Below are positions 4,838 to 59,400 of a stretch of DNA of 64,000 nucleotides, one piece after another (position 1 is the stretch's first letter; each line of letters opens with the position of its first letter). The position numbers and the translations under genes are program-made. Origin of the DNA: Escherichia phage JM10; sequence record PP400777. One strand, written 5' to 3'. The notes below the pieces were generated by a model. The model saw only the letters and a program-made list of their open reading frames with translations. It was not told the origin of the DNA and did no database searches.

Positions 4838-5853
4838 CATTATGTTCAGATAAGGTCGTTAATCTTATCCCGGAATTATATCCAGCTGCATGTCACCATG
4901 CAGAGCAGACTATATCTCCAACTTGTTAAAGCAAGTTGTCTATCGTTTCGAGTCACTTGACCCTACTCCCTAAAGGGATAGTCGTTAGGCATTTATGTAG
5001 AACCAATTCCACTTATCAGATTTTACACGGTAAGTAACTAATCCTGATGAAATTTCAAAATGTCTAGCCGCATCGGCTGCACATTCAAAAATAATCCCAT
5101 CGCATGAAATCTTTTTGATGTTAGCTGGCTTTTTGCCTTTCATCTTTTCAGATAGTTTAGTTTTAGTTTTTTCTGAATGTTTGTGATTAAAGAACGGGTT
5201 ATTTTCACCTGAACGTTTTCGGCACTTTCCACAAGTATCGGCCGAAGATGGTATGCGAACACCGCATTTACAAAACTTGTGGTTTTCTGGATTCCATCGG
5301 CCATTTTTACTTCCGTGTTTACCATAAAGAGCTTTCCGACCGTCAGGACCAAGCTTAAGCATCTTAGCTTTAACAGTTTCAGCTCGTTTCTTAGCAATTT
5401 CTTCTTTTAATGGATGATTTGAAAGCACATCGCCAAAAGACGCATCAGCAATATTATATCCATTAATTTTAGAATTTAGCTCTTTAATCCAAAAATTTTC
5501 TCGTTCAATAATCAAATCTTTCTCATATGTAATTTCTTCCAGTACAGAGCATTCAAAAACATTACCATGTTTATTAAAAGACCTTTGAAATTTTATAGAA
5601 GAGTGAACACCGTTTTCAAGGTCTTTAAAATGTCTCTTCCATCTTTTCTCAAAATCTTTAGCACTTCCAACATACACTTTACCGTTTAAAGTGTTTTTAA
5701 TCTGATAAATTCCGCTTTTCATAAACACCTCTTTTTATATAGAAGTATTTATTAAAGGGTAGTCCTACAATTTAGCACGGGATTGTCTACTAGAGAGGTC
5801 CCCCGTTTAGATAGATTACAAGTATAAGTCACCTTATACCTAGGCCTAAATTA
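4838..5853 (-). mobile_element. Group I intron in td (1016 nt) with I-TevI ORF
   Basis: Intron begins UAAUUUAGGCCUAGGUAUAAGGUGACUUAUACUUGUAAUCUAUCUAAACGGG (T4 td intron-like 5' end), ends ...AAUG before CUACCG; length 1016 nt as in T4. Confidence 0.88.
4985..5722 (-). CDS. I-TevI: GIY-YIG homing endonuclease I-TevI (intron-encoded)
   Basis: MKSGIYQIKNTLNGKVYVGSAKDFEKRWKRH... GIY-YIG domain plus C-terminal zinc finger/NUMOD3-like DNA-binding region; listed ORF trimmed to the MKSG start. Confidence 0.92.
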   Translation of the reverse strand: MKSGIYQIKNTLNGKVYVGSAKDFEKRWKRHFKDLENGVHSSIKFQRSFNKHGNVFECSVLEEITYEKDLIIERENFWIKELNSKINGYNIADASFGDVLSNHPLKEEIAKKRAETVKAKMLKLGPDGRKALYGKHGSKNGRWNPENHKFCKCGVRIPSSADTCGKCRKRSGENNPFFNHKHSEKTKTKLSEKMKGKKPANIKKISCDGIIFECAADAARHFEISSGLVTYRVKSDKWNWFYINA

Positions 5854-7237
<1,384 letters not shown>

Positions 7238-7300
7238 TTTATTCTCCTCTTCACTTTTATTTTATAGGGCTACTATAACATAGCCCTATCTTGTTATAAA

Positions 7301-7693
7301 CTACTTTTTAAAGGTTTTTTGCAAAAGTTTGATGATTTCGTCGACGTTGGTTTCATCTACGATACAATTGATTTTTGTTACACCTAAAGCTATACCTTCG
7401 TTAGTAGATTGAGGCTTTACTAAATCTACCTCAATAAAGTATTTGAACTCGTCAGGATAAATCTCAAAATAAGTTTCAATTTCACCACCGGCAGAACATA
7501 CAGTACCATCTTCCATAGTTACACTTACTACGTTTGACGTATCGCTATCATAATCAGGTTCCATTCCGTTTACAACAAAACTAGGCCCGTGGAGTTCAAT
7601 CAATTTTAACATCTTAGCGTTATTATGTGGTGCTTCTTGAACAAAGTCATCTTTAAATAAAGGGTTAATGATATAAGATTTTCCGATTTCCAT
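7301..7693 (-). CDS. Hypothetical protein (130 aa)
   Basis: ORF with SD GAGGAAA upstream and an early-promoter-like GTTTAC about 55 nt upstream. Confidence 0.5.
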   Translation of the reverse strand: MEIGKSYIINPLFKDDFVQEAPHNNAKMLKLIELHGPSFVVNGMEPDYDSDTSNVVSVTMEDGTVCSAGGEIETYFEIYPDEFKYFIEVDLVKPQSTNEGIALGVTKINCIVDETNVDEIIKLLQKTFKK

Positions 7694-7778
7694 TTTGATT
7701 TCCTCATGTTGTTGATAGGTTTATACTAACACATCCAGGGAAGAAGTAAACAACTTTTTCGGCAATTTACAGATACTC

Positions 7779-7800
7779 AAAAGGGAGACCGAAGTCTCCC
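7779..7800 (-). terminator. Rho-independent terminator after gene 32
   Basis: Perfect hairpin GGGAGAC-UUCG-GUCUCCC (minus-strand RNA) followed by a U-run, 7 nt after the gene 32 stop. Confidence 0.8.
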
Positions 7801-7806
7801 AATTTA

Positions 7807-8706
7807 TTATAGACCAGCTAACAGGTCATCGAGGTCGCCATCGTCAGAAGACGAGGAACTCATGAAGTCATCTTCAGTTTTTGCAGAACCAAAGGCTTCC
7901 ATGTCTTTATCAAAATCGTCAAGGTCAGAAGCAACTTTATCTGCAACAGAAGCTGCGGCAGCTGCTGCACCACCAAGAGCGGCAGTACCAAGAACTTGAT
8001 TAAATTTAGTATTCAATTCTTCAAACGATTTGAACTTATCTTTAGAAGTCATTTCAGAAAGGTCAACCATTTGTTCGAACAATTCTTTCTGGAAAGATTC
8101 ATCATCAATGTTTGGAATCGCAGATTGATTCAGGAATTTAGATTCGTCGTAGTTACTGAAACCAGAAACCTGTTTAACTTTCAGCACAAAGTTAGCACCT
8201 TCCCATGGGCAAGTTACATCAACTGGAGTTTCACCCATTTCAGTATCGACTGCAATCATTGCATTGATTTTGTCCCAAATCTTTTTACCGAAACGATATT
8301 TAAATACTTTACCTTCATTATCTGGAGCTTGTGGGTCTTTAACAACCAGAATATTAGCCCAATAAGAAGTTTTACGTTTCAGTTGAGAATATTCAGTTTT
8401 GTTGGTATTGTACAGGTCATTTTTACTAATGTACTGACATACAGGACAAGAGTCATAATCGCCGTGTGTAGATGAACAGGTTTCAATATACCATTTACCA
8501 TTTTTCTTGAACCCGTGGTTAACAAGAATTGTAAACGGAAGTGCGTCATCTGTTTTTGCCGGCAGGAAACGAATTACCGCTTGACCATTACCGGATGCAT
8601 CGAGTTTCAGCTTCCATTCACCTTTATCTTCTGAAGAGAAACCTTTGTTACCATTCAGTTTAGCCATCTGAGCTGCGAGGTCTGCGGTACTTTTACGTTT
8701 AAACAT
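7807..8706 (-). CDS. 32: Single-stranded DNA-binding protein gp32
   Basis: [49 protein letters not shown]..., acidic C-terminal tail; 299 aa. Confidence 0.95.
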
Positions 8707-8800
8707 TTTATTTGCCTTTATTTAGATTATTTAATTTATTTACAGTTGGTTGCTACGACACTTATACCTCGTAGCTGGTATGATTTATTTATAAAGTAAT
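8707..8800 (-). promoter_or_regulatory. Gene 32 5' leader: hairpin/pseudoknot candidate plus A/U-rich unstructured operator
   Basis: Stem GCUACGA/UCGUAGC at about 8752-8775 followed (toward the ATG) by UAAAUAAAUUAAAUAAUCUAAAUAAAGG; matches the known architecture of the gp32 translational autoregulation site. Confidence 0.55.
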
Positions 8801-8822
8801 TTTAACACACAAGAAATAAAGC

Positions 8823-9476
8823 TTAATACTTACATGATTTGATTGTTTCTATGAACAATTTCTTAGCAGCATTTCCATCGATTTGAAGTATTTTTCGATA
8901 TGCCTTTAATTTAGTAGAATAATTTTGCCAGACTAAGTTATCGGTGAGTTCGTCGTGCTTATCTATAATATTCAAAAATGAGTCCAATAATAAGAAAGTC
9001 TCAAATGAAATTATATTGCTTTGTAGCAATTTGAATATGTAGCTCGACTGAACGTTATTATTATAATCAAATATCTCTTGAAGCGCACTAACTTCAACTT
9101 TCTTACTGAAATAGTAGATGTTACGTACGTCTTCAGCAAACGTCTCTTTAGCTTGTTTGAGACGTCCAATATATTCCCTATAGAAAACTAATGCATCAGC
9201 GTCTGATATCTCACCAATCCATGCGTCTTGGTTAGCAACTAAGTTGCTTATGAATATCAAGGTGAGTTCCTTCAATTTATATTTCTCTGCTAGTTTTTCA
9301 AAGAAATATTTATCTCGACGTTTTTGATACGCATTATCCGAAACACGCATGCACCAGTTATATTTGATTACGTCATACCGACCACCAAAGTGGTTTTTGC
9401 ACATCAAGTATAGTTTATATACTGATTTACCGTTAATATACCGTTCTCCGCCAGGAGGCATGCGTATTTTAATCAT
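8823..9476 (-). CDS. 59: Helicase loader gp59
   Basis: 217-aa ORF in T4 order between 32 and 33, same length as T4 gp59. Confidence 0.8.
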   Translation of the reverse strand: MIKIRMPPGGERYINGKSVYKLYLMCKNHFGGRYDVIKYNWCMRVSDNAYQKRRDKYFFEKLAEKYKLKELTLIFISNLVANQDAWIGEISDADALVFYREYIGRLKQAKETFAEDVRNIYYFSKKVEVSALQEIFDYNNNVQSSYIFKLLQSNIISFETFLLLDSFLNIIDKHDELTDNLVWQNYSTKLKAYRKILQIDGNAAKKLFIETIKSCKY

Positions 9477-9811
9477 AATAAGAAATCTAACGTATTAGTT
9501 TTTTCACCACGAGCAACTGATGGGCGAAGCATGTTTTCGTCAATTGCTTCGCTTGTAATTTTTTCAACAATTCCTGTAGGAATAAATTTAGCAAATTGTG
9601 TTTCTGGAATAGAATTTTCTTCCAAGAAAGCAGTTGTTGCTTCTAAATAAGACATACCAAATTGTTCAACCATGGATTCGATAATGAATCCGTTTTCTTG
9701 TCGGTCAAGCAATTTAGCGATATCATCTTTATCATGTTTTACTGCTAATTCTTGTTCAGATAAACCGGCCTCATCAACCGGTTTAATATCACTTAGTGAA
9801 AACTGTGTCAT
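9473..9811 (-). CDS. 33: Late transcription co-activator gp33
   Basis: 112-aa acidic ORF at the T4 gene 33 position. Confidence 0.8.
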   Translation of the reverse strand: MTQFSLSDIKPVDEAGLSEQELAVKHDKDDIAKLLDRQENGFIIESMVEQFGMSYLEATTAFLEENSIPETQFAKFIPTGIVEKITSEAIDENMLRPSVARGEKTNTLDFLL

Positions 9812-10058
9812 AAAGCTCGACTACCTCTTCGTTTTCAGCTTCAAATTGATCACGAGCGTCTTTATGATAAAGAACTAACAAACGATTAAACATTTTTCCA
9901 TCAACGCCAAGCTCTTCTTTAGCACGAGTACGAATGTCTTTAATCAGTTCATTATAACCAGAAATTTTAAGTTTGTTATCAGAAGCTTCCTTGACTAGTT
10001 TAGCCAGTTCTTCACCATGCACATCTTGATTAAATTCAACTGCTTCTTTCTTAGCCAT
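9789..10058 (-). CDS. dsbA: dsDNA-binding protein DsbA (late transcription enhancer)
   Basis: 89 aa from the internal ATG (listed ORF has a 6-codon extension overlapping gene 33); position between rnh and 33. Confidence 0.7.
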   Translation of the reverse strand: MAKKEAVEFNQDVHGEELAKLVKEASDNKLKISGYNELIKDIRTRAKEELGVDGKMFNRLLVLYHKDARDQFEAENEEVVELYDTVFTK

Positions 10059-10065
10059 GTTTACC

Positions 10066-10983
10066 TCAGAATTCATTAATTACACTTGTTAATTTAGAAA
10101 GACCAGATTTTACAAAGTATGAATAAATCTTGCCTTTAGGTTGTTGTTTATATGAGTTATAATACTCTATAATGGTTGAAGCAATATTATCAGGTATATA
10201 ATCAAAATCAATGAGAACCAAATTTTCTTGATACCGTTTATATTCTTCTGCACTTAATAATACTTCAGCTTGAGAACGGTCATTAGCAATTGCTTCAATA
10301 ATTGATGTTTTCATACTTGGAGTTCGTTCACCATCAACTCTGGTAAACCAGAAGTCACCACGAACTCGAACAGATGCAACGCCGTCTTTACGGTCACCTT
10401 TAAGAATTTTAGTCATGCAATCAATTTCAGCAGAACAGTTCTTAATTTTAACCCATTTTTTCTGTGGTGGCGACCACTGTTTAACGTTAGGATATTTGTG
10501 TAATTGTGTAAAGTCACCATCTGATGCAACAATACATACCTTATGACCAGCTAATGACAAATATTTAGTTAATACACCGATATGGTCATCCGCTTCATAC
10601 TTGTCAATATCCATTACAACGTATGGCATGTATTTCTTAATCTCATCAACAACTTGATGGAGTGCAGTAAAATATCCTTCCCAATCCCACTTTGAAGCTT
10701 CACGATCGGTTTTACGATTTTTCTTGTAATAGTAAGCAAAGTCACGACGCCAATAACCTGAAGTAGCATTATCCATACACAATACAAATTTTGTATAGCC
10801 TTGCTTACGGAACATCACTACGTTTTTACGAATTGAATTCAAGATTACATGGCGAACCATTGGTATCGTAATTTTATCGCCGTCTTCAAAGTTGTTTAAT
10901 GCGGCTGCCAATGCAATGTTACTAAAGTCGGCAAGTGCAATACCTTCTTTATAATCTTCATCCAACATCATTTCTAAATCCAT
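10066..10983 (-). CDS. rnh: RNase H / 5'-3' exonuclease (FEN-1 family)
   Basis: 305-aa ORF at the T4 rnh position, divergent from gene 34. Confidence 0.85.
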   Translation of the reverse strand: MDLEMMLDEDYKEGIALADFSNIALAAALNNFEDGDKITIPMVRHVILNSIRKNVVMFRKQGYTKFVLCMDNATSGYWRRDFAYYYKKNRKTDREASKWDWEGYFTALHQVVDEIKKYMPYVVMDIDKYEADDHIGVLTKYLSLAGHKVCIVASDGDFTQLHKYPNVKQWSPPQKKWVKIKNCSAEIDCMTKILKGDRKDGVASVRVRGDFWFTRVDGERTPSMKTSIIEAIANDRSQAEVLLSAEEYKRYQENLVLIDFDYIPDNIASTIIEYYNSYKQQPKGKIYSYFVKSGLSKLTSVINEF

Positions 10984-53400: not shown

Positions 53401-54300
53401 TTATTCCTCGATTACGACATCTTCGTATTTAGGTATATTATACGGTGAAGAAATTAAAGCGTTAAAGTAGATGAACTCACCAAGACCTGGATGGAATACT
53501 TCTTCAGGATTTTCGAAATATTGAATCTTCGGACGTCCTTTAAGAATTTGATAGTACTCAGTTTTAGTTGGTTTAAAAATTCGAATCAACGCTTCTTCAG
53601 GATACTTATTTCTGTCGAAGCTATTATTTGGATCGGTTATATAAAGCGGTTGGCCTAATTGAATTGCACATTCAACCACTTGTTCAAAACGATAGCACGG
53701 GTCACTAATTCGAAATGGATGAAAAATACCATCTAGATGAATAGGAGCCAAATCACCTACAAGACGCTGCATGATGGAAGGACGTATAACTTTCTGCGTT
53801 ACGATAATCTTATTACCATCTGCACCTGCGTTAACCAGCACTTCTTTTTGACGTTCATTCAACACAGTAGTTTGAAGTGAACGATTAACCGACAACATAT
53901 CAGTTTTTAAGAATTCGTCAATATAAAAACGTGGTTTATTAGGGTCTGCAGTGATATTGAAATTGAATTCCACATCAAAAGCGCCGTCATATCCGGTGAT
54001 ATCTGTGATTAGAAAATCACAATCATAATAAGCAATTAATGAATCAACCACAAATTCATTTTCAGACCAGAAATATTTACGAGTGTTATACGCGTTATCT
54101 TTATACCATAATGGAACAAACTTAAATTCTGGGAAAAGACGTTCGCATTCTTTAATATCGGATGCATTACGTGGATATGTAATCACATCGCCTGGATTAG
54201 CACGGTGCAAATGAAGTTGGAAGTTGCCATCCTTAAGGATAGCATACTGTCCAGTTTCATAAGACCGCATACTCAAAATAGGTACGCGGAAAATAGCCAT
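53401..54300 (-). CDS. Hypothetical protein (299 aa) at the beta-glucosyltransferase locus; possible DNA-modification enzyme
   Basis: No recognisable catalytic motif by eye; ATGA-overlapped with gene 42; not similar to what I recall of T4 Bgt. Confidence 0.45.
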   Translation of the reverse strand: MAIFRVPILSMRSYETGQYAILKDGNFQLHLHRANPGDVITYPRNASDIKECERLFPEFKFVPLWYKDNAYNTRKYFWSENEFVVDSLIAYYDCDFLITDITGYDGAFDVEFNFNITADPNKPRFYIDEFLKTDMLSVNRSLQTTVLNERQKEVLVNAGADGNKIIVTQKVIRPSIMQRLVGDLAPIHLDGIFHPFRISDPCYRFEQVVECAIQLGQPLYITDPNNSFDRNKYPEEALIRIFKPTKTEYYQILKGRPKIQYFENPEEVFHPGLGEFIYFNALISSPYNIPKYEDVVIEE

Positions 54301-55016
54301 TAGTCAAGGAATCCTTTAACATAATCAAAATCACGTTCAAACACATGGGCACTTACCATGGTATGAGTATAATCACCAACTTCTACACCACATTCGTTAG
54401 CGATATAATGAAGTAATTTTCCTTGGAGATAAAAATCCAACTGCATAACAACAGCACAGTTCTGAGAACGCATATGACAGTGGGTATAAAGCTTACCATC
54501 ACGAATATAATAAGTCACTGAGTCAGTACATGGATATTCAAGCGTTTCGTCTGAATCAAGCAAAGCCTGATCAGAACTTTCTAGAATTTGGAACACAACT
54601 CTTCGAGAGTTAGGCTTCTCTTTAAGTTCTTTTAGAAGAGTTGGTAATTGGGCCGCAATGCGAGGACCATAGAAAGTGTTGAAGTTCGCCGGCAAAACAT
54701 CTGATTTTGGTTTAGAAATAAATTTAGCGACATTAGGATATGCCTTAAACGCTTCTTCTGCGTTGGTACCACCAGAAATCATAAACTTCCAGAAGTCTTC
54801 GGCATATTCATAAGAGATGCGGTTAATACGTGGGTCGGTCATTTTGAATGATGATGGAGTGTCAACAACTACTGTCATAGACCCAATTTCATTACAACGT
54901 CCAATACGAGAATCAGTTACGAATTCCGGGTTTTCTAAAATTTCACGATTGACTGCTTTAAATGCGGTTTGAAAATCTGCGGCTTTGATATATTTCATTG
55001 TGTTATGTTTTCCCAT
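54300..55016 (-). CDS. 42: dCMP hydroxymethylase gp42 (thymidylate-synthase fold)
   Basis: TS-family active-site pattern ...YPCTDSVTYYIRDGKLYTHCHMRSQNCAVVMQLDF (Cys nucleophile and RS.N segment); position between uvsX and 43 as in T4. Confidence 0.7.
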   Translation of the reverse strand: MGKHNTMKYIKAADFQTAFKAVNREILENPEFVTDSRIGRCNEIGSMTVVVDTPSSFKMTDPRINRISYEYAEDFWKFMISGGTNAEEAFKAYPNVAKFISKPKSDVLPANFNTFYGPRIAAQLPTLLKELKEKPNSRRVVFQILESSDQALLDSDETLEYPCTDSVTYYIRDGKLYTHCHMRSQNCAVVMQLDFYLQGKLLHYIANECGVEVGDYTHTMVSAHVFERDFDYVKGFLD

Positions 55017-55058: not shown

Positions 55059-55298
55059 TTATTTGAATTTCTTGACAATGTTGATATAACGTAAAGCTTC
55101 AGCATCGATACTTCCAAGAACACTATGAAGAAATGCATCAGCGTAGTATTCCAATTGAACAGGTTCTTTAATCACTTTAGCCGCTTTAGTTTCAAACAGG
55201 CCCATCAGGGCCTGTTTAAGAATTTGTTCATTAGTGTTCAGTTTCATAGTCAAAATCTCTTCATTAAGTTGGTGGTTAAAAGTTTTTCTAGAAATCAT
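55059..55298 (-). CDS. Hypothetical small protein (79 aa)
   Basis: ORF with ATGA overlap to the Cys-rich gene upstream. Confidence 0.45.
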   Translation of the reverse strand: MISRKTFNHQLNEEILTMKLNTNEQILKQALMGLFETKAAKVIKEPVQLEYYADAFLHSVLGSIDAEALRYINIVKKFK

Positions 55299-56455
55299 TC
55301 CGGGTACCTCAAAGCGTCATCAGAGTTAGTTATATCAATAATAGATATAGAGTTTTCTGCTAACCCGTTTTTAGATAATTGACGTTTATAATATCTTTCA
55401 CAATATGTACACGTCGTCCCGCAGATTTCATTAGCACAATCGAAATCTGGATGTCTGAACCACCTTTTTTCTAAAAAGCCATCTAACAAAGAGGTTTCAA
55501 TATTTACTGTATGTGAAAACTCAGTTTCGTTTTCAAGAGTGAAAATAGTCTCTAAAGGCTTCCACAGTTCTAACAAATTACCTTCAAACTTTTCAGAAGC
55601 GTATGCTTCAAGAACTTTCAAAATGTAGTCTGTACTACCTGTACGTCCTGAAACTTTGAATTGAGTGATACCAATATCATTATAAAGTTTCAAATCTTGA
55701 GGACGAACAAAACGAGTTCTCAACCAGTTAAATGGGTCTGTATCACGAGCTTTAATACAGTGCTGCATAGGATATCCGTTTAAGGATTTAGCATCATCAG
55801 CTGTAACATCAGTACTATGGAAAATATAGCAAGAGTCACGATAGCTACAATGTGTTGTATACCCTTTACCAGCATTAGAACAGAACTCATTTACAAGAAC
55901 TTCAAATATTATATTGTTCTTATTGCAAAACTCTGCTGCACGCTTCAGGAAAGAAACTGAACGGTTCTTATGAATTCCACAGCAGACCTTTTTGATATTA
56001 TATTGGTCATGCAAGTATTTGATTTGAGTTACAGCATCGACATGTAGAATTGTTGAAACTTCAATCTCAATGTCTTTATTGACTTCACGAACAATTTCCA
56101 TAACAACAGGGTTAGCGATAGTAATACGCCATACGCCTATTGACCAAAGATACTGAACATAATCCTGAATAGCTTTCTTCTTCCACTCAACTAGTTCTCT
56201 TTTTGAACCAGGATTTATCGTGTTGAGTGTATAGTTAAAGCAAATACCTAATTCGTTACAACGTTTAACGTAATCTTCTAACATCTTTTTGTCAACGTCA
56301 GGAAGCCTAAAATCAGGTCTGGCTGCTACAAAAGCCATTTCTCTTGTAGAGCCGTATACTTCGTTTATCAAGCTATTAGGATAAGTTTTATTGAGCTCTA
56401 CGATTTTATCAAGAAGAGCTAAATCAAAATTCGTTCCGATTTTAAAAGTATTCAT
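55295..56455 (-). CDS. Cys-rich protein of unknown function (386 aa), part of the sugar-nucleotide module
   Basis: 13 Cys including clusters VCCGIH, EFCSNAGKGYTTHCSYRDSC and a C-terminal CANEICGTTCTYC (C-x4-C-x3-C-x2-C); a metal or Fe-S site is possible. Confidence 0.5.
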   Translation of the reverse strand: MNTFKIGTNFDLALLDKIVELNKTYPNSLINEVYGSTREMAFVAARPDFRLPDVDKKMLEDYVKRCNELGICFNYTLNTINPGSKRELVEWKKKAIQDYVQYLWSIGVWRITIANPVVMEIVREVNKDIEIEVSTILHVDAVTQIKYLHDQYNIKKVCCGIHKNRSVSFLKRAAEFCNKNNIIFEVLVNEFCSNAGKGYTTHCSYRDSCYIFHSTDVTADDAKSLNGYPMQHCIKARDTDPFNWLRTRFVRPQDLKLYNDIGITQFKVSGRTGSTDYILKVLEAYASEKFEGNLLELWKPLETIFTLENETEFSHTVNIETSLLDGFLEKRWFRHPDFDCANEICGTTCTYCERYYKRQLSKNGLAENSISIIDITNSDDALRYPE

Positions 56456-56511: not shown

Positions 56512-56898
56512 TTATAGATTAGGTTTATATGATTTAAATGTTTCGAATTCGCCTTTATTCATAAGAGCTTTGAATTCGTCAGGACGCATAGCTTTGTCGT
56601 CGATAATCCAATCATATACTGGTTTATGTGTTAGCAAATTATGGTACTTCAAGCCAATGTTTGCCAAGTTCTGAATCAGACTTGGGAGAATGTCAATTGC
56701 TATACGTCCAGGACCTACTGACTTCATACCGCGAGCAGTGTAAAGCGTTATTGTATGCCCTGCATCATACAGAGCATTAATGGCAGACACCATTTCGACG
56801 TCTGGTTTGAAGTTCACGTAATCACGATTGTTATTCCACTCTGTTATACAATCATCGACATCAAAACAAAGATTAAGCATGTTTTCTACACGGTGCAT
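56512..56898 (-). CDS. HAD-superfamily phosphatase (small, about 128 aa)
   Basis: Motif I-like FDVDDCIT near the N-terminus, motif II TLYTARG, motif IV-like IIDDKAMRPDE; start taken at the ATG overlapping the upstream stop (TAATG) with GGGAA SD. Confidence 0.6.
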   Translation of the reverse strand: MHRVENMLNLCFDVDDCITEWNNNRDYVNFKPDVEMVSAINALYDAGHTITLYTARGMKSVGPGRIAIDILPSLIQNLANIGLKYHNLLTHKPVYDWIIDDKAMRPDEFKALMNKGEFETFKSYKPNL

Positions 56899-58583
56899 TA
56901 GATTCGTTCCCATTGATGAGTGATATCGCCACCGATTGGACGATAGGAAACACCAGTTTCTTTATCAGTTAGTACCCATTTACCAGGATTTTTTGTAATC
57001 AGAGTAGCCGTTACAGGTTCTGCTACGTCATAACTAATAGAGCCGTCCTGAAGTACACGGCCCATGTTACGTAATTGCTTAGTCAGAAGTTCCATACCTT
57101 TATAATATGCGGCTACCGCTTTAAGTGGATTATTCTTGAAATAACCACCTAATGCAATCCAGATAATTGCCACTGCCAAATGATGATACTCGTTAAACGA
57201 ACTCATCTTTCCATATTTGTAAACTAATGGATTGATGTTAATAGTCACATTACAAGTTGTTTCATCAATAGTAAACTGTCCCCAGGTCGGATTAGCATTG
57301 AATTCATCATAACCTGAAACAGCATAAAGCACTTTAGCTTCATCATACAATTTTGGCCCGTAAATCTTGGTTTCGCCAAAATATCCACGAGGGTCGATAA
57401 ACTTGACTTCGCCGTTATCAGTAATCATAGTATTACTGAAGTTCGGGTCACCGTGAATAACAGAGTACTGCCCCTGAGAACGGTTATGATAACGAATAAG
57501 GTGTTCTAAAGCTTGTTTCAGCATTGGCTTCAGACGTCCAATCTTAGTGTAGTTCACATGTGTGATTTTACCAAATGAATCAATCAATGGTTGAATGCTT
57601 TCACAACGATCAATAACTTTCGTATAGAATTCTTTAGTGAAATCACGACGAACAGTTTCAGGACTTACAAAATAAGTGTCTGTGCTGAATTTCAGTGCAT
57701 CTAAAATTGCATCAACAATTTGTGGACGAGCAAGACTTGATTTGGATTTAATATATTCAAATGCCGGCTTACCTTTAATGCGTTCCATTTCAAAGTTATT
57801 TTCATTAACAGAAACTAACTGAGGAACTGAATCTGATTTCACTTTAAGATACCATGAAATCTCATCTTTCTGAAGAGCTCGACCTTGTTCAGTTAATGCG
57901 AATTTAGTTACAGTTTCTTCACCAATTTCAACTGCATTAAAACTACGATTAAGTTCACGAACTTCATGAGCTTTTTCAAGTTTAGGCATATCACCTAAAT
58001 CAATTATATTCATAAGCTCTGATTTATTGAATGCGCCGCTGTAAAGGAATTCTACAAAATCACGTCCTTTGCAGTATTCATGAATTTCCTCATCGGTAGA
58101 ACCCATATAGAATTCCCAGTCTTTGAACTGATAAATTCCTACAACATTACCACCTGTTGAACCTACGTTAGTGATATTTTCACCGTCGAAATTATAGCGA
58201 CATTCGTCACCCTTAACATAGATTGCGTTGACATTCCAAGACCATGAACCAAAATCAGGAATAATATCGCACCAGTTAACAATTACGTTATGGCCATCTA
58301 AATCTTTGTGTAATTTAGCAAGAGCATAAGCAGATCCGTATGCTTCATCAACTGTACGAATAGTCACATTGAACCCTTCTTGCTCACAATAAGCTCGAAC
58401 AGTTTCAGCAAATTTTGAATGAACTACTACAATAATTTCATCTGCGCCAAGGTCAGAATAAATTGTATACAAATTGCTCAGAATAGTGTCTTGTTTATAG
58501 TTAACAAGCACCTTAGGAATATGATGCGTTATTGGATACAAACGAGTTGCCAGTCCAGCACCAAGAATAACAGCTTTTTTCAT
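56898..58583 (-). CDS. Bifunctional sugar-1-phosphate nucleotidyltransferase (RmlA/GalU-like) / APH-fold sugar 1-kinase
   Basis: N-terminus MKKAVILGAGLATRLYPITHHIPKVLV matches the G-x-G-T-R-L signature of sugar-1-P nucleotidyltransferases; C-terminal VIHGDPNFSNTMITDNGEVKFIDPRGYFGE matches the HGD...N / D-x-E motifs of aminoglycoside/choline/anomeric-sugar kinases; 561 aa. Confidence 0.7.
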   Translation of the reverse strand: MKKAVILGAGLATRLYPITHHIPKVLVNYKQDTILSNLYTIYSDLGADEIIVVVHSKFAETVRAYCEQEGFNVTIRTVDEAYGSAYALAKLHKDLDGHNVIVNWCDIIPDFGSWSWNVNAIYVKGDECRYNFDGENITNVGSTGGNVVGIYQFKDWEFYMGSTDEEIHEYCKGRDFVEFLYSGAFNKSELMNIIDLGDMPKLEKAHEVRELNRSFNAVEIGEETVTKFALTEQGRALQKDEISWYLKVKSDSVPQLVSVNENNFEMERIKGKPAFEYIKSKSSLARPQIVDAILDALKFSTDTYFVSPETVRRDFTKEFYTKVIDRCESIQPLIDSFGKITHVNYTKIGRLKPMLKQALEHLIRYHNRSQGQYSVIHGDPNFSNTMITDNGEVKFIDPRGYFGETKIYGPKLYDEAKVLYAVSGYDEFNANPTWGQFTIDETTCNVTININPLVYKYGKMSSFNEYHHLAVAIIWIALGGYFKNNPLKAVAAYYKGMELLTKQLRNMGRVLQDGSISYDVAEPVTATLITKNPGKWVLTDKETGVSYRPIGGDITHQWERI

Positions 58584-58624
58584 GTTGTGGTCCTCATTGG
58601 TAAGTAGGAGTATTGTACACTATT

Positions 58625-58768
58625 CTAGTTAAAGCATTCATACTTCGCTTGTAGTCCAATCATAATCCATCCGATTATAAGAGTCGGAACCATTACTGGA
58701 GCCGTTAAGCTCCAGTAGATAGTCATGACAAGCATCAATAGTAAAAGTCCTATTGTTATTGCTTTCAT
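58625..58768 (-). CDS. Small membrane protein (47 aa), not in ORF track
   Basis: MKAITIGLLLLMLVMTIYWSLTAPVMVPTLIIGWIMIGLQAKYECFN; start overlaps the SIS gene stop (ATGA). Confidence 0.45.
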   Translation of the reverse strand: MKAITIGLLLLMLVMTIYWSLTAPVMVPTLIIGWIMIGLQAKYECFN

Positions 58769-59400
58769 TGCTCGCCTCGTAACATGGCACCTAGTGCACC
58801 GCCTGGATGGAACTTAAGGAAGTCATTAGAGGTAAATCCACGTTCAGACGAAAGGTTGATAGCAAACGTATCGATAAGCGCTAACAACAATGTAGTGGAC
58901 ATAGTCGGAGCCAGAGAATTCTCATCAACCTCTACTGCGATGCCTGTACAGAACGTATAATCAAAAAGAGCTTCGTATTCTTGTGGAATGTCAGGGTTAC
59001 AATGTAACAGAATCTGTTTAACCTGAGGACGAATCATACGAAGATGTTTAGCAACACCTATCATTTCTTCAGTCTTACCAGAACGACTGATGTGAACTAA
59101 TACATCATTAGGTGCAATAAATCCTGCGTCACCATGAGAATAATGCCCGGTGTTCAAATACATGCTAGGAATACCGAGTGAAGCAAAAGTCTCGGAAGCT
59201 TTAGTTGCGATATTAGCATTCTTACCAACACCTGTAATAATTACTCGGCTTTCATAATTACTAAGTCCCGGGCGTCGAAGAGTTTCTAGAATAGCATTAT
59301 AACGAGCAGGGTTTTGACTAATTACTTTGGCCATAGCGGCCAAAGAAGAAGCTTGTTTTATGATTGCGTCAATAGCGATAGTAATAGGAGTAGTTTTCAT
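58765..59400 (-). CDS. Arabinose-5-phosphate isomerase-like SIS-domain protein (KdsD/KpsF N-terminal domain, no CBS pair)
   Basis: SRVIITGVGKNANIATKASETFASLGIPSMYLNTGHYSHGDAGFIAPNDVLVHISRSGKTEEM and ...LAPTMSTT...FHPGGALG align motif-by-motif with the KdsD SIS domain as I recall it (GKVVVMGMGKSGHIG..ATFASTGTPSFF..HGDLGM..DVVIAISNSGESSE ... APTSSTT ... SHPGGALG); 211 aa. Confidence 0.75.
   Translation of the reverse strand: MKTTPITIAIDAIIKQASSLAAMAKVISQNPARYNAILETLRRPGLSNYESRVIITGVGKNANIATKASETFASLGIPSMYLNTGHYSHGDAGFIAPNDVLVHISRSGKTEEMIGVAKHLRMIRPQVKQILLHCNPDIPQEYEALFDYTFCTGIAVEVDENSLAPTMSTTLLLALIDTFAINLSSERGFTSNDFLKFHPGGALGAMLRGEQ

What the first reader, a model, noticed from the sequence alone, without database searches (positions are those of the whole stretch)
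56898..58583. Single-polypeptide fusion of a sugar-1-phosphate nucleotidyltransferase with an APH-fold anomeric kinase
The N-terminal 25 residues carry the canonical G-x-G-T-R-L-x-P-x-T nucleotidyltransferase signature (AVILGAGLATRLYPIT), and the C-terminal third carries the HGDxxxxN catalytic loop and the IDxxG..E motif of the aminoglycoside-phosphotransferase/choline-kinase fold (VIHGDPNFSNTMITDNGEVKFIDPRGYFGE). A fusion of this kind would make a salvage-type two-step activation (sugar -> sugar-1-P -> NDP-sugar) in one enzyme. It is analogous in logic to AmgK/MurU or LicA/LicC, but unusual in a phage and apparently dedicated to the DNA-modification sugar.
Basis: partly seen in the sequence, partly recalled or inferred. 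Interest (0 to 1): 0.8.

Follow-up and report, generated by a model that had tools for sequence, protein, structure and literature searches.

The report
Phage UDP-arabinose kinase/nucleotidyltransferase fusion (AfhE)
This RB69-type phage gene really does encode one protein that joins a sugar-phosphate nucleotidyltransferase to an APH-type kinase, but it is the already published enzyme that makes UDP-arabinose for decorating phage DNA, and it starts from arabinose-5-phosphate rather than from free sugar.

Summary

The gene is not new. The protein is 99.1% identical to RB69 ORF53_52c, which Thomas 2018 described as a single 561-aa protein. Lee 2026 modelled it as a nucleotidyltransferase plus kinase, and it is the counterpart of HY126 AfhE, characterised biochemically by He 2026.

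As reported for AfhE, the kinase phosphorylates D-arabinose-5-phosphate at C1. A separate HAD phosphatase, encoded by the next and translationally coupled gene, removes the 5-phosphate. The N-terminal domain then makes UDP-arabinofuranose. This is a de novo route from ribulose-5-phosphate, and its logic matches the GmhA/HldE/GmhB heptose pathway rather than AmgK/MurU salvage. The gene is also not rare: 373 phage records carry it.

Side lead: the neighbouring U32-family gene, which sits next to a chorismate mutase in related phages, may be an oxygen-independent cytosine hydroxylase.

The parts
56898..58583 (-). Whole gene: 561-aa bifunctional enzyme (RB69 ORF53_52c / gp52:53 orthologue; AfhE-type), stop codon included
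   Evidence: ORF list. 99.1% protein identity to RB69 and 100% to phage vB_EcoM_G2285. phrog_4098 hit over the full length, E 1e-294.
57969..58583 (-). N-terminal nucleotidyltransferase domain, residues 1-205 (Araf-1-P + UTP -> UDP-Araf)
57066..57968 (-). APH/choline-kinase-fold kinase domain, residues 206-506 (Ara-5-P + ATP -> Ara-1,5-P2, by homology to AfhE)
56901..57065 (-). C-terminal ~55-residue tail (residues 507-561), small beta elements, function unknown
   Evidence: Model pLDDT 77-84 with strands 546-549 and 558-560. Present in 28/46 homologues (the T4-like phage group) and absent from the 18 distant ones and from the giant-virus fusions.
58591..58595 (-). Shine-Dalgarno GAGGA, 8 nt upstream of the ATG
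   Evidence: Read directly from the sequence.
58612..58636 (-). T4 middle-promoter-like site (MotA box TGCTTTA, 12 nt, TACAAT) directly upstream of the gene
   Evidence: Pattern search: 15 matches in the window against 3.8 expected, with 0/100 shuffles reaching 15. Function is inferred from knowledge of T4.
56512..56898 (-). HAD-type phosphatase (AfhF-type; RB69 gp51), 128-aa form whose ATG overlaps the upstream stop (TAATG)
   Evidence: Junction sequence. 100% identical to PDB 9iqw over residues 6-133. TIGR01689 capsule-biosynthesis phosphatase, 1xpj E 5e-10. The same overlapping adjacency is seen in 5 genera.
58765..59400 (-). SIS-domain arabinose-5-phosphate isomerase (RB69 gp55): Ru5P -> Ara5P, which feeds the kinase
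   Evidence: Pfam SIS E 1e-9. NCBIfam KpsF/GutQ 110 bits and KdsD 105 bits. phrog_5670.
53401..54300 (-). 299-aa putative first arabinosyltransferase (RB69 gp46:47), consumer of UDP-Araf
   Evidence: Synteny with RB69p046/047. Assignment taken from Lee 2026 Table 1. No Pfam hit here.
54300..55016 (-). ThyA-homologue 5-hydroxy-dCMP synthase (RB69 gp48), which makes the acceptor base
   Evidence: Pfam Thymidylat_synt E 2e-15. About 97.5% identical to PDB 9iqc/9ir2/9iqu. Activity shown for RB69 gp48 in Lee 2026.

Best explanation
The gene encodes the Mosigvirus version of the published bifunctional enzyme RB69 ORF53_52c (gp52:53) / HY126 AfhE. It is the core of a four-step, phage-encoded de novo route to UDP-D-arabinofuranose, the donor used to arabinosylate 5-hydroxycytosine in phage DNA. 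Step 1: the SIS isomerase (58765-59400) converts host ribulose-5-P to D-arabinose-5-P. Step 2: the C-terminal APH-fold kinase domain phosphorylates C1 with ATP to give arabinose-1,5-bisphosphate. Step 3: the small HAD phosphatase encoded by the next, translationally coupled gene (56512-56898) removes the 5-phosphate. Step 4: the N-terminal nucleotidyltransferase domain condenses Araf-1-P with UTP to give UDP-Araf. The fusion therefore joins steps 2 and 4, as HldE does in ADP-heptose synthesis. Shown here: gene integrity, both folds, conservation of the catalytic residues, near-identity to RB69, synteny and gene coupling. Taken from the literature for a close relative and inferred for this window: the substrates (Ara5P, UTP) and the order of steps.
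Against: I could not read the primary biochemical paper (He 2026) or Mahler 2025; the substrate assignment rests on one secondary account. Table 1 of that same paper still lists the older scheme (HAD: Ara5P -> Ara; kinase: Ara -> Ara1P). I could not obtain the HY126 AfhE sequence, so its identity to this protein is inferred from neighbouring genes. The tool does not give the source organism of the 9iq* PDB entries. Pfam APH is not hit by this protein itself, which gives only sub-threshold kinase hits. No coordinates were available to inspect a 5-phosphate pocket.
Confidence: 0.85

Rival explanations
1. One reading: a salvage enzyme in which the kinase phosphorylates free D- (or L-) arabinose at C1 and the fused nucleotidyltransferase immediately activates it. 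The HAD phosphatase would act earlier, producing free arabinose from Ara5P.
Against: The text of Lee 2026, updated after He 2026, states Ara5P kinase activity and a bisphosphate phosphatase. A phage-encoded Ara5P isomerase sits 2 genes upstream, so the input is a phosphosugar. Releasing an uncharged free pentose would waste the intermediate. The isomerase/kinase/HAD/NT set exactly mirrors the heptose bisphosphate pathway (established knowledge).
Confidence: 0.1
2. The architecture is as described but the nucleotide is different: the N-terminal domain makes CDP-, GDP-, dTDP- or ADP-arabinose rather than UDP-arabinose.
For: The best sequence-level PDB relatives are a CTP-using enzyme (LicC, E 2e-5) and a GTP-using one (HddC, profile E 3.7e-14). 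Lee 2026 says only 'NDP-arabinose, potentially UDP-arabinose' in one place.
Against: AfhE is reported as a UDP-D-arabinose pyrophosphorylase. UDP-Araf supports arabinosyl transfer by the DLP3 enzymes.
Confidence: 0.04
3. The C-terminal domain is a degenerate or regulatory pseudokinase, or phosphorylates something other than the sugar, and the protein is effectively only a nucleotidyltransferase (as the GenBank labels 'GlmU' or 'nucleotidyl transferase' imply).
For: This protein alone gives no significant Pfam kinase hit. Many database annotations name only the N-terminal domain.
Against: K227, E241, D379, N384 and D397 are invariant in 46/46 homologues. The kinase fold is confidently modelled. 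GlmU models score about 22 bits against cut-offs of 367-505 and cover only residues 3-106. Kinase activity is reported for AfhE.
Confidence: 0.01

Closest known systems
RB69 ORF53_52c (gp52:53) / phage HY126 AfhE / Acinetobacter phage DLP3 gp82
   Same: Same protein family and, for RB69, essentially the same protein: 99.1% identity, the same 561-aa length, and the same neighbours (SIS isomerase, HAD phosphatase, U32, ThyA-like 5hodCMP synthase, glycosyltransferase). The same fold hits are reported (4y7t/1jyk for the NTD, 3ham for the CTD).
   Different: Five amino-acid differences from RB69. Identity to AfhE itself was not measured. DLP-type Acinetobacter homologues are about 56% identical.
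HldE (RfaE) with GmhA and GmhB: ADP-L-glycero-D-manno-heptose pathway of E. coli
   Same: Identical pathway logic (established knowledge): SIS isomerase -> anomeric kinase acting on a sugar phosphate -> HAD phosphatase removing the distal phosphate from the bisphosphate -> nucleotidyltransferase. The kinase and nucleotidyltransferase, which catalyse non-consecutive steps, are fused in one polypeptide. The GDP-heptose transferase HddC is the best PDB profile hit of the NTD.
   Different: A pentose instead of a heptose. The kinase here is APH/choline-kinase fold, not ribokinase/PfkB. The transferase here is RmlA/LicC-type (PF00483), not the cytidylyltransferase-like domain of HldE. The domain order is reversed. 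No PfkB or CTP_transf_like hit was found.
AmgK / MurU (MurNAc salvage) and LicA / LicC (choline activation)
   Different: Those are separate proteins acting consecutively on an unphosphorylated substrate. The MurU equivalog model scores 24.8 bits against a cut-off of 250. No phosphatase step intervenes.
FKP (L-fucokinase/GDP-fucose pyrophosphorylase) and the Leishmania arabino/fucokinase-pyrophosphorylases
   Same: A single polypeptide with a nucleotidyltransferase and an anomeric sugar kinase; some make an NDP-D-arabinose (my own knowledge).
   Different: Their kinase is GHMP fold. They use free sugar, run consecutive steps, and make GDP-pyranose products.

Membership tests
AfhE / RB69 ORF53_52c family (bifunctional Ara5P 1-kinase / UDP-Araf pyrophosphorylase) | Near-full-length homology to RB69 ORF53_52c | tested here: met
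   99.1% protein identity over 561 aa; 97.9% nt with one gap at the known RB69 sequencing error.
AfhE / RB69 ORF53_52c family (bifunctional Ara5P 1-kinase / UDP-Araf pyrophosphorylase) | N-terminal nucleotidyltransferase plus C-terminal kinase fold in one chain | tested here: met
AfhE / RB69 ORF53_52c family (bifunctional Ara5P 1-kinase / UDP-Araf pyrophosphorylase) | Genomic association with an Ara5P isomerase, an AfhF-type HAD phosphatase, a 5hodCMP synthase and a DNA arabinosyltransferase | tested here: met
   All are present on the same strand between gene 43 and uvsX. The HAD protein is 100% identical to PDB 9iqw.
AfhE / RB69 ORF53_52c family (bifunctional Ara5P 1-kinase / UDP-Araf pyrophosphorylase) | Direct sequence identity to HY126 AfhE | not tested
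   The HY126 sequence and the He 2026 paper were not available. Near-identity is inferred from the 9iq* entries.
AfhE / RB69 ORF53_52c family (bifunctional Ara5P 1-kinase / UDP-Araf pyrophosphorylase) | Ara5P kinase and UDP-Araf pyrophosphorylase activities | not testable with these tools
   Reported for AfhE only through Lee 2026 section 27.
Sugar-1-phosphate nucleotidyltransferase (Pfam PF00483) | Score above the Pfam gathering threshold, plus the signature G-x-G-x-R...P-K and acidic metal/sugar-phosphate residues | tested here: met
APH / choline-kinase phosphotransferase family (Pfam PF01636) | Pfam model hit for this protein itself | tested here: not met
   No PF01636 hit at E<0.01. Only sub-threshold hits: Fructosamin_kin 17.1 (cut-off 22.4), EcKL 16.2, RIO1 16.1. 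However, 12/46 homologues hit PF01636, best 6e-10.
APH / choline-kinase phosphotransferase family (Pfam PF01636) | Bilobal kinase fold with beta3 Lys, alphaC Glu, HGDxxxxN catalytic loop and the IDxxG metal-binding Asp | tested here: met
GlmU (the label in several GenBank records) | Left-handed beta-helix acetyltransferase C-terminal domain; equivalog score | tested here: not met
   GlmU models score 16-23 bits against cut-offs of 367-611 and cover only residues 3-106. The C-terminal domain is a kinase.
HldE-type heptose kinase/adenylyltransferase | PfkB/ribokinase kinase domain plus a cytidylyltransferase-like domain | tested here: not met
   No PfkB or CTP_transf_like hit. The resemblance is in pathway logic only.
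MurU / AmgK salvage pair | MurU equivalog score; free-sugar substrate | tested here: not met
   NF045761 scores 24.8 bits against a cut-off of 250. The substrate reported for the family is Ara5P.

The most novel reading that the evidence does not exclude
The fused enzyme and its translationally coupled HAD partner could work as a closed three-reaction relay (kinase -> phosphatase -> nucleotidyltransferase) that never releases arabinose-1,5-bisphosphate. The T4-like-phage-specific 55-residue C-terminal tail would be the docking element. The same relay may have been welded into a single 912-955-aa HAD-SIS-NT-kinase polypeptide in giant viruses of eukaryotes, which would mean nucleotide-activated D-arabinofuranose is made well beyond phage DNA modification.
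Probability: 0.2. Interest if true: 0.45.

Novelty: already known. Interest (0 to 1): 0.15.

Why it matters
The enzyme supplies UDP-arabinofuranose, a nucleotide sugar that E. coli does not make. Without it, Mosigvirus-type phages cannot arabinosylate their 5-hydroxycytosine DNA, and the homologue in phage Thanatos is essential. That modification governs sensitivity to restriction, CRISPR and type IV defence systems, so it matters for phage therapy and for enzymatic synthesis of UDP-Araf. The gene, its two-domain architecture and its activities have already been published, however. The value of this check is mainly corrective: the gene is on the minus strand, the route is not salvage, the gene is not rare, and the database labels 'GlmU' and 'phosphoheptose isomerase' are wrong. 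It also produced the side leads listed below.

Tried and rejected
(1) Pfam on the protein alone gave only sub-threshold kinase hits, so I needed homologues and fold comparison.

(3) A sequence search of the PDB found no structure of this protein.

(4) The primary papers He 2026 and Mahler 2025 are not held. No supplements are held for Lee 2026. A search for 'AfhE' or 'HY126' finds only Lee 2026. HY126 is in the taxonomy as unclassified Caudoviricetes, and I did not see it among the listed phage hits.

(5) I rejected the 'GlmU' annotation.

(6) I rejected the 'phosphoheptose isomerase' / 'polynucleotide kinase' labels for the downstream gene: it is a small HAD phosphatase.

(7) I tested whether the window's 79-aa ORF 55059-55298 is the chorismate mutase found at that position in related phages. 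It has no Pfam hit and no BLASTP similarity, so this is unresolved.

(8) The HAD domain of the giant-virus fusion is beta-phosphoglucomutase-like and not detectably homologous to the phage HAD.

(9) I could not inspect the model coordinates for a 5-phosphate-binding pocket, because model files are not exposed to scripts.

Full report
**Observation.** The coordinates 56898-58583 delimit exactly one ORF of 561 codons, but it lies on the minus strand; the plus-strand translation is full of stops. The first quoted peptide, AVILGAGLATRLYPIT, is residues 4-19 and is followed by the conserved Pro-Lys (K24). The second, VIHGDPNFSNTMITDNGEVKFIDPRGYFGE, is residues 375-404. A GAGGA Shine-Dalgarno sequence sits 8 nt upstream of the ATG. 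A T4 middle-promoter-like site (TGCTTTA-N12-TACAAT, 58612-58636) lies just upstream of that; this pattern occurs 15 times in the window against 3.8 expected. The window is a Mosigvirus (RB69-like) genome. The gene is 98.6% identical in DNA to many such phages. Its protein is 100% identical to that of vB_EcoM_G2285 and 99.1% identical to RB69.

**What is already published.**
- Thomas et al. 2018 (PMC6024577) showed that RB69 ORF053c and ORF052c are one 561-residue protein split by a sequencing error. They expressed it and proposed a role in UDP-arabinose synthesis. The window lacks that extra base.
- Lee et al. 2026 (PMC13326640) showed that RB69 and DLP3 DNA carry arabinosylated 5-hydroxycytosine, not hmC. 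They modelled gp52:53 as an N-terminal nucleotidyltransferase (4y7t, 1jyk) plus a C-terminal kinase (3ham). They equated it with AfhE of E. coli phage HY126, which He et al. [quoted passage not shown] AfhF is reported as a Mg-dependent HAD phosphatase that converts Ara-1,5-bisphosphate to Ara-1-P.
- I could not read He 2026 or Mahler 2025.
- The PDB holds a 134-residue 'capsule biosynthesis protein' (9iqw) that is 100% identical to the window's HAD protein, and 'thymidylate synthase' entries (9iqc, 9ir2, 9iqu) about 97.5% identical to the window's ThyA homologue. I infer that these are the HY126 structures and that HY126 is nearly identical to this window. The tool does not name the organism, so this remains an inference.

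**Mechanism.** The best-supported scheme has four steps.
1. Host ribulose-5-P is converted to Ara5P by the SIS isomerase at 58765-59400, which has KpsF/GutQ/KdsD-type hits.
2. The kinase domain converts Ara5P to Ara-1,5-P2.
3. The HAD phosphatase converts Ara-1,5-P2 to Araf-1-P.
4. The N-terminal domain converts Araf-1-P to UDP-Araf.

UDP-Araf is the donor that works with the DLP3 arabinosyltransferases. The fused domains therefore catalyse steps 2 and 4, not consecutive steps.

The phosphatase gene starts at the last base of the fusion gene's stop codon (TAATG). The same overlapping adjacency is found in Kanagawavirus, Winklervirus, Dhakavirus and Lazarusvirus phages, which argues for co-translation of the three activities. 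Independent support for the pathway comes from natural fusion proteins of 912-955 residues that carry HAD, SIS, nucleotidyltransferase and kinase in one chain. The Shewanella phage Thanatos homologue (54% identity) is essential for propagation and does not use xylose-1-P.

I cannot exclude it computationally and give it about 0.1.

**Comparison with known systems.** In logic this is a pentose copy of the ADP/GDP-heptose pathway: GmhA isomerase, HldE or HddA kinase, GmhB phosphatase, and the HldE or HddC transferase (established knowledge). That includes the fusion of the two non-consecutive activities in HldE. The parts differ, though: the kinase is APH-fold rather than PfkB or GHMP, and the transferase is LicC/MurU/HddC-like. 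AmgK/MurU and LicA/LicC share the folds but not the fusion, the phosphosugar substrate or the phosphatase step, and the MurU and GlmU equivalog models fall far below their cut-offs. The gene is common in phages: tblastn finds it in 373 records. Verdict: already known, with low interest as a discovery.

**Side observations.**
- A roughly 55-residue C-terminal tail is confined to the T4-like phage group.
- The four-domain fusion P0084 lies among two Rpb2 genes, Rpb10, a MutS+HNH gene and TFIIB. This is a giant-virus context. A similar fusion occurs in a Ceratiomyxa transcriptome.
- The most interesting lead concerns the gene two positions downstream (55295-56455), a Peptidase_U32 family member. 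U32 proteins RlhA, TrhP and UbiU/V carry out O2-independent, prephenate-dependent hydroxylations, including 5-hydroxycytidine in rRNA (PMC5727448, PMC6599085, PMC10990095).
- In 48 related phages a Pfam-verified chorismate mutase, the enzyme that makes prephenate, sits between the U32 gene and the ThyA-like 5hodCMP synthase.
- More distant homologues of this U32 subfamily (49-58% identity) lie next to dCMP deaminase, dUTPase/DCD, thymidylate kinase, a TAGT-type DNA glycosyltransferase and UDP-galactopyranose mutase. None of the six contexts examined has a ThyA homologue within 10 kb.
- This fits a base hydroxylase that could supply 5-hydroxycytosine without oxygen, whereas the published flavin enzyme needs O2. 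Lee 2026 lists this protein as a 'sugar or heterocycle reductase' and does not draw the connection. I found no paper in the library that does, but I could not check He 2026.
- The gene is accessory: Dhakavirus and Acinetobacter phage clusters lack it.

Noticed in passing
window 55295-56455 (-); related loci L003 4983-6394, L004 4992-6502, L005-L012: The Peptidase_U32-family gene (RB69 gp50) sits between the HAD phosphatase and the 5hodCMP synthase. U32 proteins (RlhA, TrhP, UbiU/V) are O2-independent, prephenate-dependent hydroxylases, and RlhA is needed for 5-hydroxycytidine in rRNA. In 48 related phage records a Pfam-verified chorismate mutase (the prephenate maker) lies directly beside it. 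Distant homologues sit next to dCMP deaminase, dUTPase/DCD, thymidylate kinase, TAGT and GLF, with no ThyA homologue nearby. Hypothesis: an oxygen-independent route to 5-hydroxycytosine. I found no statement of this in the readable literature.
   Followed up: partly
window 55059-55298 (-): This 79-aa ORF (RB69ORF049c) occupies the slot that holds a 79-114-aa chorismate mutase in Kanagawavirus and Winklervirus phages. It shows no Pfam hit and no BLASTP similarity to those proteins. It is either an unrelated replacement or a very diverged version.
   Followed up: partly
P0084 / L015 10001-12781; also P0088, P0089, P0091, P0093, P0096, P0108: Single polypeptides of 912-955 aa fuse a bPGM-like HAD domain, a SIS domain, the nucleotidyltransferase and the kinase. 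P0084 lies in a giant-virus-like context (two Rpb2 genes, Rpb10, MutS+HNH, TFIIB). P0091 comes from a Ceratiomyxa fruticulosa transcriptome. This suggests NDP-arabinose synthesis in Nucleocytoviricota.
   Followed up: partly
P0106, P0107, P0110, P0111, P0117 (about 777-790 aa): A second fusion type: the nucleotidyltransferase-kinase followed by a C-terminal cupin domain that one source annotates as 'mannose-6-phosphate isomerase-like'. It comes from very AT-rich sequences, and the cupin might replace the SIS isomerase.
   Followed up: no
window 56901-57065 (-), residues 507-561 of the protein: A C-terminal ~55-residue extension with short beta strands (pLDDT 77-84) is present in all 28 T4-like-phage homologues aligned and absent from the 18 distant homologues and from the fusions. 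Its role is unknown; it could be a docking or oligomerisation element.
   Followed up: partly
window 56896-56900 (-) and L003, L004, L013, L014: The stop codon of the fusion gene overlaps the start of the HAD phosphatase gene (TAATG). The same overlapping arrangement is conserved in five Straboviridae genera.
   Followed up: yes
window-wide; e.g. 58612-58636 (-), 57306-57331 (-), 59162-59185 (-): T4 MotA-type middle-promoter pattern TGCTTNA-N11-13-TANNNT: 15 matches against 3.8 expected. One lies directly upstream of the fusion gene, and two lie inside the coding sequences of the fusion gene and the SIS gene.
   Followed up: partly
Public annotations of the orthologues: Database names are misleading. 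The fusion is labelled 'bifunctional protein GlmU', 'mannose-1-phosphate guanyltransferase' or hypothetical. The HAD phosphatase is labelled 'phosphoheptose isomerase', 'capsule biosynthesis protein' or 'polynucleotide kinase'. The RB69 RefSeq record still splits both this gene and the arabinosyltransferase gene (p046/p047) at sequencing errors.
   Followed up: yes
L013 (Dhakavirus JS98) 5440-10175: The Dhakavirus cluster has the fusion gene, the HAD phosphatase, thymidylate kinase, the ThyA homologue and the glycosyltransferase. It has no U32 gene and no annotated SIS isomerase, with an uncharacterised 166-aa ORF in that position, so it presumably relies on host KdsD/GutQ for Ara5P.
   Followed up: no
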